Source of the DNA: Escherichia coli
GTDB taxonomy: Bacteria; Pseudomonadota; Gammaproteobacteria; Enterobacterales; Enterobacteriaceae
NCBI RefSeq assembly: GCF_003019035.1
Contig: NZ_CP027447.1
Length of the DNA: 64,000 nt
Reading direction: 5' to 3' (one strand)
How positions within the stretch are numbered: the first letter of the stretch is position 1; each line of letters starts with the position of its first letter. Below the pieces are notes generated by a model that saw only the letters and a list, made by a program, of their open reading frames with translations, had not been told where the DNA came from and did not search any database. A program made the position numbers and the translations under genes. This document shows, piece after piece, positions 1-4,556 of the stretch.

Positions 1-518
<518 letters not shown>

Positions 519-610
519 CTAATCCTTTGAATTTACATAGTAAAAAAGATACTTTTCCTCATAGTGTGAGCTAATTTTATGTTTCGTTTGATGATCGGAC
601 CGGTCTCAAA

Positions 611-712
611 AACCGCAGGCACGTTGTATGCAAGAACGTGCTGTGGCTGGCTGGTGAACTTCCAATAGTGCGAATATTGAATGATTTCTATCTGTTATAG
701 ATTTTACCGTAT
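611..712. repeat. Conserved ~100-bp element, copy A (homologous to 5170-5268)
   Basis: About 75% identity to copy B. Hairpin CACGTT(620-625)/AACGTG(635-640) around loop GTATGCAAG; copy B has compensatory changes in the stem. Confidence 0.4.
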
Positions 713-947
713 TTCGGCATGAATGAAACTGAATATCCTCCCACCGATTCTCCATGACTTTACGCCACTGTCTCTAGGGCTGCTATGTGCCAGAGGCGGA
801 CGTTGTTAAAATAGAAAATATCCCAACCTTGTATGAGTCGTGCAATAATTTCGAACTTTATACAAAGCTTTGGTTGTAAAGGTGTATAACCACAAGTGAC
901 ATTAATCACATTTGTAAAGGCAAAATGCAACAAACTGAATTAGTTAA

Positions 948-1099
948 TTGCGTAAATTTGAAGTTATGTTAAGGTGGTGATGGTTTATGGGCAGATTTTG
1001 GGTCGCGTTTCGCGATCAGTGAAAAAAATGTCCGATAGGATTGCCTTTCAGGATCTCATGTTCCTCGCATTTCTTAAGGTTCTTGTCAAGTTTGCGTAA
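948..1099 (+). ncRNA. Candidate retron msr-msd non-coding RNA (speculative)
   Basis: Retron RTs normally have a cognate ncRNA just upstream. 948-961 (TTGCGTAAATTTGA) can pair with 1086-1099 (TCAAGTTTGCGTAA) over 14 bp including 3 G-U pairs, enclosing 124 nt and ending 35 nt before the RT start. No long msd-like hairpin was identified by eye. Confidence 0.2.
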
Positions 1100-1133
1100 G
1101 AGTGCCCATAAACCCTTTTAGAGGCGATCTAAA

Positions 1134-2969
1134 GTGAAACGACTACAATCATTAAAAGAAGCAAAAACAAAACCAGACTTGGCTAAGCTATTAGGAATCA
1201 AACCTTCAGCGTTAACATACTGCCTATATGTATTAAAACCTGAAAATCAATACACACAGTTTAAGATACCAAAAAAAAATGGCGGCGAACGGATAATAAG
1301 TGCACCTAACGGAATATTAAAGACGATACAGTCATCCTTATCAAGACTGCTTCTAGATTGCTTAGACGAAATAGTTTGCATTAAGTTTCCAGACTCAGAG
1401 TTAGCAAGGCAGAAAGCAAAAAACTCAAAAATATTAAAGTTAAAATGTTCCAACTCAGAAATCAAACAACCCTCACTGTCTCATGGATTTGAAAGAAAGC
1501 GTTCAATTATTACAAATGCAATGATGCACTTGGGGAAAAAATATGTTTTTAATATAGACTTGGATAATTTTTTCGGCAGTTTTAACTTTGGTAGAGTCCG
1601 AGGTTTTTTCATAAAAAATAGAAACTTTGCACTCGATCCGGAAATCGCAACTGTAATTGCTAAAATTGCGTGCTACAACAATGAACTACCCCAAGGCAGC
1701 CCATGCTCCCCAGTAATCACTAATCTAATCACTCACTCGTTAGACATTAAACTGGCAGCGATTGCATCAAGAAACTCATCCACTTTTACAAGATATGCTG
1801 ATGATATTACATTCTCTACGAGGAAGGGGGAGTTTCCTTCTGCTATAGCAAAAAATCAAAATGGTAAATATATCGTTAGTAAGAAAATTAGGGGCGAGAT
1901 AACTCGCTCAGGTTTTATAATTAATGATGGGAAGACAAGAAATCAGTATAAAGACTCGAGGCAAGATGTAACAGGCTTAGTGGTTAATAAAAAGCCAAAC
2001 ACGAAAAAAGAATATTGGAGGCTTGTGCGTGCGCAATGTGACCATTTATTTAAACATGGTGAGTTCTTAGAGGTGATTGACGGCAAGGAAATAAAGGGGA
2101 ATGTTAATACCCTTGCAGGCAAACTTAACTTCATAGACCAAGTTGACCACTATAATAGATTGCGTCAAGGCGAAAAATTAAATCCAAAATATCACTTAAA
2201 AAAAGATGCCAATAAAAATGGCCATGCCAAAAAAAGGCGTTACTTACATAGTTCTAGAGAAAAAACGTTTAGTGAGTTTCTCTTCTATCGTTTATTTTAT
2301 GGCAATGAATTACCAACAATTCTTACGGAAGGTAAAACTGACAATATTTATCTGAAGGCAGCAATACATAAGTTAGCCTCATCATTCCCTAATTTGGCGG
2401 TCGCTGAAAGTCCAGGGCTCTCTTATAAGCCACGGACTAAATTTGTTAACTACAATGAGCGGACAAAATATTTACTTGAACTTTATGGTGGTGCTGATTA
2501 TTTAAAGGATTTTGTTATTCATTATAAACAACACTTTAATCGTTATAAGGCTCCCAAACCATCTAATCCAGTAATTATACTTGTTGATAATGATAGCGGA
2601 CCAAAAGATCTGATTAATTACGTTAGTAAAGTTGATAATATTGGTATTTTCCCCACAGGTGTTCCAGATATCCGCGCCTCTGAGTTTGTACATATTTTTT
2701 GTAATCTTTATTTAGTGCTTACCCCTCAAGTTAAGGGATATACAGGAACTGATATAGAGCATTTTTTTAAAGATGCAGATCGACTTAGACCACATAAAGG
2801 TAAGTTTTTCAATACAGTCTCTAAGCGTGATCATGATAATGATTTGAGCAAGGAATCTTTCGCAACTCATATTGTTCATGCCCACAAGCATGAAATTGAT
2901 TTTAGTGGATTTACAAGCCTGTTAGAACGGTTAGTAAAAGTCATAAATCACTTTGACACTGTTAAGTAA
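1134..2969 (+). CDS. Retron-type reverse transcriptase fused to C-terminal TOPRIM-like domain (611 aa)
   Basis: GTG start with GAGG 9 nt upstream. RT motifs: KKNGGERIISAP (aa 47-58), NAxxH as ITNAMMH (aa 126-132), IDLDNFF (aa 141-147), LPQGSPCSP (aa 185-193), YADD (aa 221-224, nt 1794-1805), VTG (aa 280-282). C-terminus: ILTEGKTD (E399, nt 2328-2330) and ILVDNDSGP (D485/D487, nt 2586-2594), the Glu plus DxD pattern of TOPRIM. Visibly AT-rich relative to flanking core genes. Confidence 0.8.
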   Translation: MKRLQSLKEAKTKPDLAKLLGIKPSALTYCLYVLKPENQYTQFKIPKKNGGERIISAPNGILKTIQSSLSRLLLDCLDEIVCIKFPDSELARQKAKNSKILKLKCSNSEIKQPSLSHGFERKRSIITNAMMHLGKKYVFNIDLDNFFGSFNFGRVRGFFIKNRNFALDPEIATVIAKIACYNNELPQGSPCSPVITNLITHSLDIKLAAIASRNSSTFTRYADDITFSTRKGEFPSAIAKNQNGKYIVSKKIRGEITRSGFIINDGKTRNQYKDSRQDVTGLVVNKKPNTKKEYWRLVRAQCDHLFKHGEFLEVIDGKEIKGNVNTLAGKLNFIDQVDHYNRLRQGEKLNPKYHLKKDANKNGHAKKRRYLHSSREKTFSEFLFYRLFYGNELPTILTEGKTDNIYLKAAIHKLASSFPNLAVAESPGLSYKPRTKFVNYNERTKYLLELYGGADYLKDFVIHYKQHFNRYKAPKPSNPVIILVDNDSGPKDLINYVSKVDNIGIFPTGVPDIRASEFVHIFCNLYLVLTPQVKGYTGTDIEHFFKDADRLRPHKGKFFNTVSKRDHDNDLSKESFATHIVHAHKHEIDFSGFTSLLERLVKVINHFDTVK

Positions 2970-3197
2970 TATTATGATGCGCACTGATTATTCCTTATTC
3001 AGCTAAAATTTCTACTGTAGTCCCAACTTCCGTTCCTCGCTCATAACAGACATTCACTACAGTTATGGTAGAAGGTATGCATGCTGGGTGGGGAAAGTAT
3101 GAAGGAAAAGAAGACTGCTGCGCCGTTTGTTGTCACATTTATCTTCATTGGCTATGCAAGTCGTAATACAAGGTGGGACAAAACTGAGACACATAAG

Positions 3198-3230
3198 GCC
3201 TCGCAATGACTTGCAAGGCTTTACATGTTT
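3198..3230 (+). terminator. Possible intrinsic terminator downstream of the RT gene
   Basis: Imperfect hairpin GCCTCGCAA/TTGCAAGGC (3198-3219, loop TGAC) followed by a T-rich stretch. Confidence 0.25.
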
Positions 3231-3298
3231 TGATGTGGTGGGACGTGTGAGCGCAGTGTTGATGGGGTAATGCTTTGAATTAGAAGCGGATTCTTATA

Positions 3299-3344
3299 AT
3301 TCGTAATGCGAAGGTCGTAGGTTCGACTCCTATTATCGGCACCA
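3299..3344 (+). pseudogene. thrW: 3' fragment (46 nt) of tRNA-Thr(CGU) thrW; island att junction
   Basis: ATTCGTAATGCGAAGGTCGTAGGTTCGACTCCTATTATCGGCACCA matches the anticodon loop (CGT), T-arm and acceptor 3' strand with CCA of thrW as I recall it. The 5' half (GCCGATATAGCTCAG...) is absent, so this is not an intact tRNA gene. Confidence 0.7.
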
Positions 3345-3707
3345 TTTAAATCAATAAGTTATCTCACATTTAAGTAAACTACGTTCTCCTCTTGTGCCTT
3401 TGATTTTGCTCGCGTGCGCGGTGAAATGCCTGACTGAAAGGTGAGCATATCGACGAACCATTTCGAGAGTTTCCCATCTGCTCATTTTTAAGTGCAAGCA
3501 GGAAAACACCGGACTAAACCAATCAGCTGTTCGAAAATGGCAAGCGGATTAATATGCCATGGCGGGGCAGCTTTGAGCCGCACGCATGGGGTGTGGCAAG
3601 CCTGATGGATTTTGCTGTGCCTGTGGTGGCGTGTTTGCTGGTTTGGCTGTTGGTTAAACGCGAAAGTCATAATGCCAGGGGAATACCGCAGGGTGTTCAG
3701 GTTTTGC

Positions 3708-3734
3708 ATAAAAAAGCCCACCATTAAGGTGGGC
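3708..3734 (-). terminator. Intrinsic terminator active on the minus strand
   Basis: GCCCACC(3716-3722)-ATTAA-GGTGGGC(3728-3734) with A6 at 3710-3715, giving a U6 tail only on the minus-strand transcript. Confidence 0.45.
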
Positions 3735-3941
3735 AAAAGGAATGATTTATATTCTCTGAGAGAAACATTACATTTCTCCTTGTCACTTCTAACATAAAAA
3801 TATGGAGAAATAATGGAGCTTATATTAATTGGCGATTAGGTAACCATGTGGTTATACAAAACAATACAGTTCTTTACATTTGCCTTGTTTTATGAATACT
3901 CCTGAAGAGGTGTACAACATAATTAAACAAACAGGGTAAAT

Positions 3942-4556
3942 ATGAATATATTTGAACAAACTCCACCGAACCGCAGACGTTATGGTCTTGCTGCATTCAT
4001 TGGGCTGATTGCTGGCGTTGTTTCCGCATTTGTGAAGTGGGGGGCTGAAGTTCCATTGCCGCCACGTAGCCCGGTGGATATGTTTAATGCAGCGTGTGGT
4101 CCGGAATCATTAATCAGGGCTGCTGGGCAAATTGATTGCTCCCGTAATTTTCTCAATCCTCCGTATATTTTTCTTCGAGACTGGCTGGGGCTGACAGATC
4201 CCAATGCGGCTGTTTATACCTTTGCCGGGCATGTCTTTAACTGGGTTGGTGTTACGCACATTATCTTTTCGATAGTGTTTGCTGTCGGTTATTGTGTGGT
4301 CGCTGAAGTATTTCCAAAAATTAAACTCTGGCAGGGCTTACTGGCAGGTGCTTTAGCCCAACTTTTTGTTCATATGATTTCATTCCCTCTCATGGGACTG
4401 ACGCCACCTCTGTTTGATCTCCCGTGGTATGAGAATGTTTCTGAAATTTTTGGACATTTAGTCTGGTTCTGGTCCATTGAAATTATTCGCAGAGATTTAC
4501 GAAACAGAATTACTCATGAGCCAGACCCTGAGATCCCTTTAGGCTCAAACAGATAA
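3942..4556 (+). CDS. yagU: Inner membrane protein YagU (DUF1440)
   Basis: 204-aa [28 protein letters not shown]..., recognised as YagU; hydrophobic segments. Confidence 0.9.

What the first reader, a model, noticed from the sequence alone, without database searches (positions are those of the whole stretch)
948..1099. Possible cognate retron ncRNA in the 700-bp leader of the RT gene
A retron RT needs an msr-msd RNA, normally immediately upstream and co-directional. The region 423-1133 has no ORF. Positions 948-961 and 1086-1099 can pair over 14 bp (3 G-U), the arrangement expected of a1/a2 flanking repeats, and the enclosed 124 nt is in the size range of known msr+msd. A small hairpin TCGCG-TTT-CGCGA lies inside. 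I could not see a long msd stem, so the exact ncRNA boundaries remain unresolved.
Basis: inference. Interest (0 to 1): 0.6.

Follow-up and report, generated by a model that had tools for sequence, protein, structure and literature searches.

The report
Retron Ec67-type ncRNA, boundaries corrected
The stretch just upstream of the reverse-transcriptase gene does encode the retron's template RNA, at 980-1116 rather than 948-1099, and it is an ordinary, unannotated member of the well-studied Ec67/Eco2 (type I-C) retron family.

Summary
The ORF at 1134-2969 is a retron Ec67-family RT-Toprim fusion (type I-C): NCBIfam NF038237 scores 742 bits against a cutoff of 450, and it is 41% identical to the Eco2 RT. 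Its cognate msr-msd ncRNA lies directly upstream on the same strand, at about 980-1116.

The true flanking repeats are a2 982-993 (GGTTTATGGGCA) and a1 1103-1114 (TGCCCATAAACC), a perfect 12-bp pairing. G994 sits in the family-invariant 'CAGAUUU' context of the Eco2 branching G15.

In 61 homologous loci from other species these two helices are 97% paired, and 18 of 19 pairs show compensatory changes. A covariance model built without the window hits only 980-1116 in all 64 kb (116 bits, E about 1e-27).

However, an equally long helix arises in 12% of shuffles, it is not conserved in the closest relatives, and its left arm lies in the -35/spacer region of the inferred promoter.

The missing long msd stem is normal for this family. 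The predicted msDNA is about 72 nt (template 1030-1101).

Verdict: a new member of a known kind, of low interest.

The parts
948..953 (+). -35-like hexamer TTGCGT of the inferred ncRNA/RT promoter.
   Evidence: Inference. T/T/G are enriched at G-48 to G-46 across 62 loci, and the hexamer lies 16 nt upstream of the -10 element. It is below the threshold of the consensus scan.
967..975 (+). Extended -10-like element TGtTAAGGT. The implied transcription start is about 980-982.
   Evidence: A TAnnnT hexamer starts at G-25 or G-24 in 35 of 62 homologous loci, against about 1 per other offset. The window's hexamer starts at G-24 (970). The Eco2 RNA 5' end is 14 nt before its branching G (PMC12916289, PMC12405507). 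The start site is inferred, not shown.
980..1116 (+). Retron type I-C msr-msd ncRNA gene (a2, msr, msd, a1).
   Evidence: Covariance model R1, built from 61 homologs without the window, gives a single hit in 64 kb: 980-1116, 116 bits, E about 1e-27, covering all 136 model positions. The segment aligns with Ec67/Eco2 ncRNA.
982..993 (+). a2 inverted repeat GGTTTATGGGCA.
   Evidence: It is 12/12 complementary to 1103-1114. The helix is 99% paired in 61 homologs, and 11 of 12 pairs show compensatory changes.
994..994 (+). Predicted branching guanosine (2'-OH primer), equivalent to Eco2 G15.
   Evidence: The A-G at these columns is invariant in 62 sequences. It is in the same register as Eco2 G15 (PMC12405507, PMC12916289). 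The branch itself is not testable here.
   Evidence: RNAalifold consensus. All 7 pairs show compensatory changes and 94.6% of cells are paired. It corresponds to the single RNA stem-loop of Eco2 msr (PMC12405507).
1030..1101 (+). Predicted msd template (72 nt). The msDNA would be its reverse complement, 5'-TCTTACGCAAAC...CCTATCGGAC-3'.
   Evidence: The ends are set by alignment register with the Eco2 template G52-A118. They agree, to within a nucleotide or two at each end, with the sequenced RT-DNA of census retron 1016 (CTTACGCAT...TTGGACA; PMC10849725 supplement). Both ends are uncertain by 1-2 nt and are inferred. The DNA fold is weak, -6.8 kcal/mol, z -1.5.
1103..1114 (+). a1 inverted repeat TGCCCATAAACC, preceded by the invariant GAG.
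1134..2969 (+). RT-Toprim fusion gene (611 aa, GTG start, GAGG at 1121-1124). Motifs present: YADD, NAMMH, VTG, Toprim EGKTD and DND.
   Evidence: PADLOC RT-Toprim_I-C, E 5e-222. NCBIfam NF038237, 742 bits against a cutoff of 450. 41% identity to the Eco2 RT over its full length. The motifs are read from the translation.

Best explanation
Window 980-1116 (+) is the msr-msd ncRNA gene of a type I-C1 (Ec67/Eco2-like) retron, whose single protein is the RT-Toprim fusion at 1134-2969.

Inferred mechanism:
1. A promoter (TTGCGT, 16-nt spacer, TGtTAAGGT at 948-975) starts one transcript near 980-982. This transcript carries the ncRNA and then the RT mRNA.
2. a2 (982-993) pairs with a1 (1103-1114). 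This places G994 next to the template end at about A1101.
3. The RT primes from the 2'-OH of G994. It copies 1101 down to about 1030 into an msDNA of about 72 nt that stays hybridised to the msr 3' end.
4. The msr hairpin (1001-1017) is the RT-recognition and bridging element.

By homology with Eco2, the msDNA-RT-Toprim complex would be a self-inhibited trimer. Its Toprim RNase would be released when a phage nuclease degrades the msDNA, cleaving tRNA/RNA and aborting the infection.

Shown here: family membership of the RT, and the position, strand, helices and conserved motifs of the ncRNA.
Inferred: the transcription start, the exact msDNA ends, branching, trimer formation and the defence function.
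For: - RT family assignment.
- A perfect 12-bp inverted repeat, the best in the leader.
- The same-position repeat is the top inverted repeat upstream of the RT in about 63 of 75 related loci analysed from other species. It is always followed by GA(U/A)U, with a1 preceded by (A/G)GAG.
- Alignment with the experimentally defined Ec67 ncRNA puts G994 on G15 (PMC12405507, PMC12916289).
- Covariation: 97.4% of cells paired, against 80% in shuffles and 32-38% with slid partners. 18 of 19 pairs show double changes, and no shuffle reached the observed value for any measure (0/500).
- An independent covariance model has a single hit, 116 bits.
- The -10 element is positionally conserved.
- Relatives with near-identical a2/a1 arms are listed as type I-C1 in the retron census, one with sequenced RT-DNA in essentially the same register.
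- The segment 782-3013 travels as a unit in at least three E. coli genomic contexts, and 896-2977 is shared with Yersinia similis.
Against: - No expression or msDNA data exist for this locus.
- The promoter hexamers are weak and missed by the consensus scan.
- The predicted msDNA fold is not better than shuffles.
- Two close ncRNA relatives gave '0 by PAGE' RT-DNA when expressed heterologously, so msDNA yield may be low.
- Rfam has no family that matches, so there is no curated model to confirm against.
Confidence: 0.9

Rival explanations
1. The reader's helix 948-961/1086-1099 is the functional a1/a2 stem, so the ncRNA is 948-1099.
For: The helix exists and is the outer stem of the MFE fold when 940-1133 is folded as one RNA.
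Against: - A helix at least as long arises in 12% of shuffles.
- It is not conserved in L013, L002 or L004, although the right arm is conserved there.
- No G follows the left arm in the family context.
- It crosses the covarying a2/a1 helix.
- The left arm overlaps the inferred -35/spacer, upstream of the likely start site.
- The covariance-model hit starts at 980.
Confidence: 0.02
2. The ncRNA is correctly placed but the retron is inactive or makes little msDNA. It would be a decayed passenger of a prophage.
For: Census relatives 991 and 1016 gave no PAGE-visible RT-DNA. The promoter hexamers are weak. The element sits beside an att-like tRNA fragment (identified from memory).
Against: - The 611-aa ORF is intact, with all catalytic motifs.
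- Every conserved ncRNA position and both helices are intact.
- Copies 98.9-99.9% identical occur in 18 E. coli genomes in three contexts.
- Census retron 1016 still yielded RT-DNA reads.
Confidence: 0.1
3. The cognate ncRNA lies elsewhere, for example downstream in 2970-3298 or on the other strand.
For: None, beyond the existence of a non-coding stretch after the RT.
Against: - The covariance model finds nothing else in 64 kb on either strand at E up to 10.
- Homology with the Yersinia similis module ends at 2977.
- The E. coli contexts diverge from 3013-3043 onward.
Confidence: 0.01

Closest known systems
Retron-Eco2 (Ec67), type I-C1, E. coli
   Same: - Single-gene RT-Toprim architecture.
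- ncRNA directly upstream on the same strand.
- 12-13-bp a2/a1 repeats.
- Invariant ...CAG(branch)AUUU after a2, and GAG before a1.
- One msr stem-loop, then CAGUG...AAU|G at the msr-msd junction.
- msd begins 5'-TC(C/T)T..GC.
- Weak msd hairpin.
- YADD, NAxxH and VTG motifs, the F46 equivalent (F43), and Toprim EGxxD/DxD.
- Prophage carriage.
(PMC12405507, PMC12916289)
   Different: - The RT is only 41% identical and 25 aa longer, with an insertion after residue 83.
- The a2/a1 and msr-stem sequences differ through compensatory changes.
- The predicted msd is 72 nt rather than 67 nt and unrelated in its central part.
- The GUCCGAUAGGAU mini-hairpin replaces the GGAGG-AAUCG-CCUCC hairpin of Eco2.
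Census type I-C1 retrons 991/1000 (Pseudoalteromonas) and 1016 (Mariprofundus ferrooxydans M34), Khan et al., PMC10849725
   Same: Near-identical a2/a1 arms (GGTTTATGGGCA / TGGCTTATGGGCA), the same msr hairpin type and the GCGTA(A/G)GAG template start. The RT-DNA of retron 1016 was sequenced from CTTACGC... to ...GGACA, essentially the register predicted here.
   Different: Different hosts and different central msd sequence. Retrons 991 and 1016 gave no PAGE-visible RT-DNA in the census; retron 1000 was not assayed.
Type XI (RT-protease) and type XII (RT-TIR) retrons, Mestre clade 8
   Same: The RT domain is related: PADLOC hits at E 1e-94 to 1e-97 over residues of about 83-354.
   Different: The C-terminal effector domain is Toprim, not TIR or protease. 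Full-length matches are only to RT-Toprim models.

Membership tests
Retron type I-C (Ec67/Eco2 family) | Retron-clade RT with YADD, NAxxH and VTG motifs, scoring above the curated family threshold. | tested here: met
   NF038237 scores 742 bits against a cutoff of 450. PADLOC RT-Toprim_I-C, E 5e-222. RYADD 220-224, NAMMH 128-132 and VTG 279-281 are in the translation.
Retron type I-C (Ec67/Eco2 family) | C-terminal Toprim domain fused to the RT, with EGxxD (motif IV) and DxD (motif V; DxD indicates I-C1 or I-C3, DxE indicates I-C2). | tested here: met
   EGKTD at 399-403 and DND at 485-487, aligned to the Eco2 Toprim. Motif definitions are from PMC7736814.
Retron type I-C (Ec67/Eco2 family) | Single protein gene, with no separate effector travelling with it. 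| tested here: met
   The neighbours differ completely between contexts. In EC7 they are a GIY-YIG gene and the end of a prophage tail/baseplate gene block; in H6 they are DUF977 and hokD in a lambdoid prophage. The shared module is 782-3013.
Retron (general) | ncRNA adjacent to and co-directional with the RT, flanked by a1/a2 inverted repeats. | tested here: met
   982-993/1103-1114, ending 19 nt before the RT start. 11 of 12 pairs covary in homologs.
Retron (general) | Conserved priming guanosine at the 3' end of a2, with the template starting just 5' of a1. | tested here: met
   G994 is invariant in 62 sequences and in register with Eco2 G15. This is a positional test only.
Retron (general) | [quoted passage not shown] | not testable with these tools
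   This needs nucleic-acid extraction with RNase and debranching treatment. Only a relative's RT-DNA reads are available.
Retron type I-C (Ec67/Eco2 family) | Anti-phage abortive defence, with the Toprim RNase released by msDNA decay. | not testable with these tools
   Known for Eco2 (PMC12916289, PMC12405507). Here it is inferred by homology.
Rfam-curated RNA family | A match above gathering score to any Rfam 15 model. | tested here: not met
   No hit overlaps 980-1116 even at E up to 10. I take this to mean the family is not represented in Rfam.

The most novel reading that the evidence does not exclude
The 611-aa subclade to which this RT belongs is 53-86% identical to the window RT but only about 41% to Eco2. 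It carries its own conserved msd features: the GUCCGnnnGGAUUGCC mini-hairpin next to the termination site, a conserved UGUCAAGUUUGCGUA template start, and a 72-nt msd. This subclade may sense a different phage trigger or form a different msDNA architecture than the Eco2 three-way junction. In addition, the conserved palindrome at the module's left edge (895-910, CRP-like) may place retron expression under host regulation.
Probability: 0.15. Interest if true: 0.35.

Novelty: new member of a known kind. Interest (0 to 1): 0.15.

Why it matters
It matters mainly for annotation. RefSeq annotates the RT but no ncRNA, and Rfam has no model that finds it. The covariance model built here locates type I-C ncRNAs precisely. 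The corrected boundaries (a2, branching G, msd template) are what anyone would need to test this retron for defence or to re-engineer its msd for editing. Biologically it adds one more prophage-borne Eco2-like defence module, seen in 18 of 5,426 complete E. coli genomes, and no new principle.

Tried and rejected
- Rfam cmscan of 1-4000 at E up to 10: only chance-level hits, none in the ncRNA.
- Sigma-70 consensus scan: it did not call the promoter. The promoter is inferred from positional conservation instead.
- Search for a long msd stem: RNA and DNA folds show only short stems. This is judged normal, because Eco2 and 60 relatives fold equally weakly and Eco2 msDNA forms an intermolecular three-way junction (PMC12916289).
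- CRP-like site at 895-910: one mismatch to TGTGA-N6-TCACA, but 4 such sites in 64 kb against 1.8 expected, and 14 of 100 shuffles have at least 4. Not significant on its own.
- Phage database megablast with the module: no match.
- About a dozen distant loci were left out of the alignments. These were the Streptococcus and Brachyspira loci and L025, L040, L050, L058 and L064, where the automatic inverted-repeat picker failed or the ncRNA is much longer. L081 was picked correctly but excluded for its 195-nt length.

Full report
**The gene.** The ORF at 1134-2969 (+, GTG start, 611 aa) matches the PADLOC RT-Toprim_I-C models end to end (E 5e-222). It also matches NCBIfam NF038237, 'retron Ec67 family RNA-directed DNA polymerase/endonuclease', at 742 bits against a curated cutoff of 450. 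Its translation carries RYADD, NAMMH, VTG, and the Toprim motifs EGKTD and DND. It is 41% identical to the Eco2/Ec67 RT over its full length, including the F46 equivalent. RefSeq annotates the 98.9-99.9% identical copies in 18 complete E. coli genomes the same way, but annotates no RNA upstream.

**The observation.** However, a G-U-tolerant helix of at least 14 bp spanning 80-220 nt appears in 23 of 200 dinucleotide shuffles of 423-1133. The inverted-repeat scan finds a better repeat that crosses it: 982-993 GGTTTATGGGCA with 1103-1114 TGCCCATAAACC, 12/12 Watson-Crick. A perfect helix that long occurs in 1 of 200 shuffles.

**Anchoring on the known retron.**
- The Ec67 ncRNA sequence, which I recalled from memory, was confirmed at 100% identity directly upstream of the Ec67-family RT in 14 E. 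coli genomes. One of these is strain S10, the source used for the Eco2 structure (PMC12405507).
- In Eco2 the RNA starts 14 nt before the branching G15. a2 and a1 flank the RNA, msr forms one stem-loop, and reverse transcription runs from A118 to G52, with U51 flipped out (PMC12405507, PMC12916289; register checked).
- The window shares the same skeleton. After a2 it reads GGCAG|AUUUUGG, where Eco2 has GGCAG|AUUUGUUGG. A 7-bp hairpin follows, then CAGUG...AAU|G, and ...GCGUAAGA-G-UGCC, where Eco2 has GCGAAGGA-G-UGCC.
- This places the branching G at 994.

**Comparative test.**
- A scan of one genome per species returned 80 loci encoding relatives of the RT, 34-86% identical.
- In about 63 of the 75 loci analysed, the strongest inverted repeat in the 320 nt around the RT start is at the same position. 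It is followed by GA(U/A)U, and the a1 arm is preceded by (A/G)GAG, while the arm sequences themselves differ.
- In the MAFFT alignment of 62 sequences, RNAalifold recovers exactly two helices, a2/a1 and the msr hairpin.
- On the 61 sequences without the window, the 19 pairs are 97.4% paired. This compares with 79.9% in column shuffles and 32-38% when partners are slid by 1-3 columns.
- 18 of 19 pairs have changes on both sides, giving 237 compensated cells against 59 expected. No shuffle reached the observed value on any measure (0 of 500).
- A covariance model built from those 61 sequences, so independent of the window, was searched over the whole 64-kb window on both strands. It has one hit: 980-1116 (+), 116 bits, E about 1e-27, covering the full model.

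- Its right arm (1086-1099) lies inside the conserved 5' part of the msd template (UCAAGUUUGCGUAA). That is why it is conserved in L013, L002 and L004.
- The sequence upstream of a2 in those loci shows only 10-11 of 14 complementarity, at shifted offsets.
- Upstream of a2 the 62 loci share no sequence, only a positional promoter signal. This consists of T-T-G near G-48 to G-46, TG near G-28/-27, and a TAnnnT hexamer starting at G-25 or G-24 in 35 of 62 loci, against about one per other offset.
- In the window this signal reads TTGCGT (948-953), a 16-nt spacer, and TGtTAAGGT (967-975). It predicts a start at about 980-982, which matches the Eco2 RNA 5' end at G-14.
The hexamers are weak and were not called by the consensus scan, so the start site remains an inference.

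**The msd.**
- By register with Eco2 the template is 1030-1101. This gives a 72-nt msDNA, 5'-TCTTACGCAAACTTGACAAGAACCTTAAGAAATGCGAGGAACATGAGATCCTGAAAGGCAATCCTATCGGAC-3'.
- The retron census (PMC10849725) lists type I-C1 relatives with near-identical arms. For retron 1016 it gives sequenced RT-DNA running from CTTACGC... to ...GGACA, the same register to within a nucleotide or two at each end.
- The predicted DNA fold is weak: -6.8 kcal/mol, z -1.5. The same is true of Eco2 (-6.2) and most relatives. In the Eco2 cryo-EM structure the central msDNA forms an intermolecular three-way junction rather than a hairpin (PMC12916289).
- The absence of a long stem is therefore a family trait, not evidence against the ncRNA.

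**Module and context.**
- Homology with the Yersinia similis locus L013 runs from window 896 to 2977 at 83% identity.
- In E. coli the module occurs with left breakpoints at 423, 640 or 782 and right breakpoints at about 3013, 3043 or 3350.
- It sits at the end of a block of prophage baseplate and tail-fibre genes, next to pinE and a GIY-YIG gene, in strain EC7. I read that prophage as Mu-like, but did not test this.
- In strain H6 it sits between DUF977 and hokD/rem in a lambdoid prophage.
- The unit is thus ncRNA plus RT-Toprim only, as expected for type I-C (PMC7736814). No record in the phage collection matches it.

**Mechanism and verdict.**
- By homology with Eco2, the ncRNA folds through a2/a1, and the RT primes at the 2'-OH of G994 and copies the msd. 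The msDNA-RT-Toprim particle is then held inactive until a phage nuclease degrades the msDNA, which frees the Toprim RNase (PMC12916289, PMC12405507).
- Shown here: the family, position, strand, helices and conserved motifs.
- Inferred: the start site, the msDNA ends, branching and defence.
- This is an unannotated but ordinary member of a well-characterised family.

Noticed in passing
window 892-915 (core 895-910): The near-palindrome ACAAGTGACATTAATCACATTTGT has a core that matches the CRP consensus TGTGA-N6-TCACA with one mismatch. It lies exactly at the left edge of homology with the Yersinia similis module, where it reads cGTGATATTAATCACA. It is centred about 78-80 nt upstream of the inferred start site. 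It is not significant by count alone: 4 sites in 64 kb against 1.8 expected.
   Followed up: partly
window 1-423 (-): The N-terminal part of a gene running off the window's left end, divergent from the retron. In the 99.6% identical EC7 locus it is annotated as a LEM-3-like GIY-YIG domain protein, next to pinE and prophage tail genes. It may be another prophage cargo or defence gene.
   Followed up: partly
window about 3297-3345 (+) and 3351-3509 (-): The sequence ATTCGTAATGCGAAGGTCGTAGGTTCGACTCCTATTATCGGCACCA looks like the 3' part of a tRNA-Thr (thrW-like) gene. I recognised this from memory; ARAGORN finds no complete tRNA there. It is followed on the minus strand by a 52-aa ORF ending ...LEMVRRYAHLS..., which resembles a tyrosine-integrase C-terminus. 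Together they look like an att-site remnant marking an island border.
   Followed up: no
window 423-3400 compared with E. coli genomes: The retron module has at least three different junctions in complete E. coli genomes: left ends at 423, 640 or 782 and right ends at about 3013, 3043 or 3350. It lies in two different prophage types. The 782-895 stretch travels with the module in E. coli but is not shared with Yersinia.
   Followed up: partly
window 974-1099 (+): A 41-aa GTG ORF lies entirely inside the ncRNA gene. It is probably spurious. A gene caller could mis-annotate it as a hypothetical protein.
   Followed up: no
window 1037-1041 and 1050-1054: The direct repeat AGGAT occurs twice within the msd template, so GUCC (1030-1033) could pair with either copy. 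The first gives the mini-hairpin conserved in the subclade. The second would enclose the conserved UUGCC, as in more distant relatives.
   Followed up: no
window 3186-3219 (-): Two terminator-like hairpins on the minus strand lie between the RT stop and the tRNA fragment. They have no obvious gene to terminate.
   Followed up: no
L067, L068, L072, L078, L079, L081, L057 (Streptococcus and Brachyspira loci): The distant RT-Toprim relatives in Firmicutes and Brachyspira keep the GCGTATGAT(T)AGATTTTTGAC...GAGT...ATCATACGC skeleton but have a much longer msr-msd, about 190 nt between the arms.
   Followed up: no
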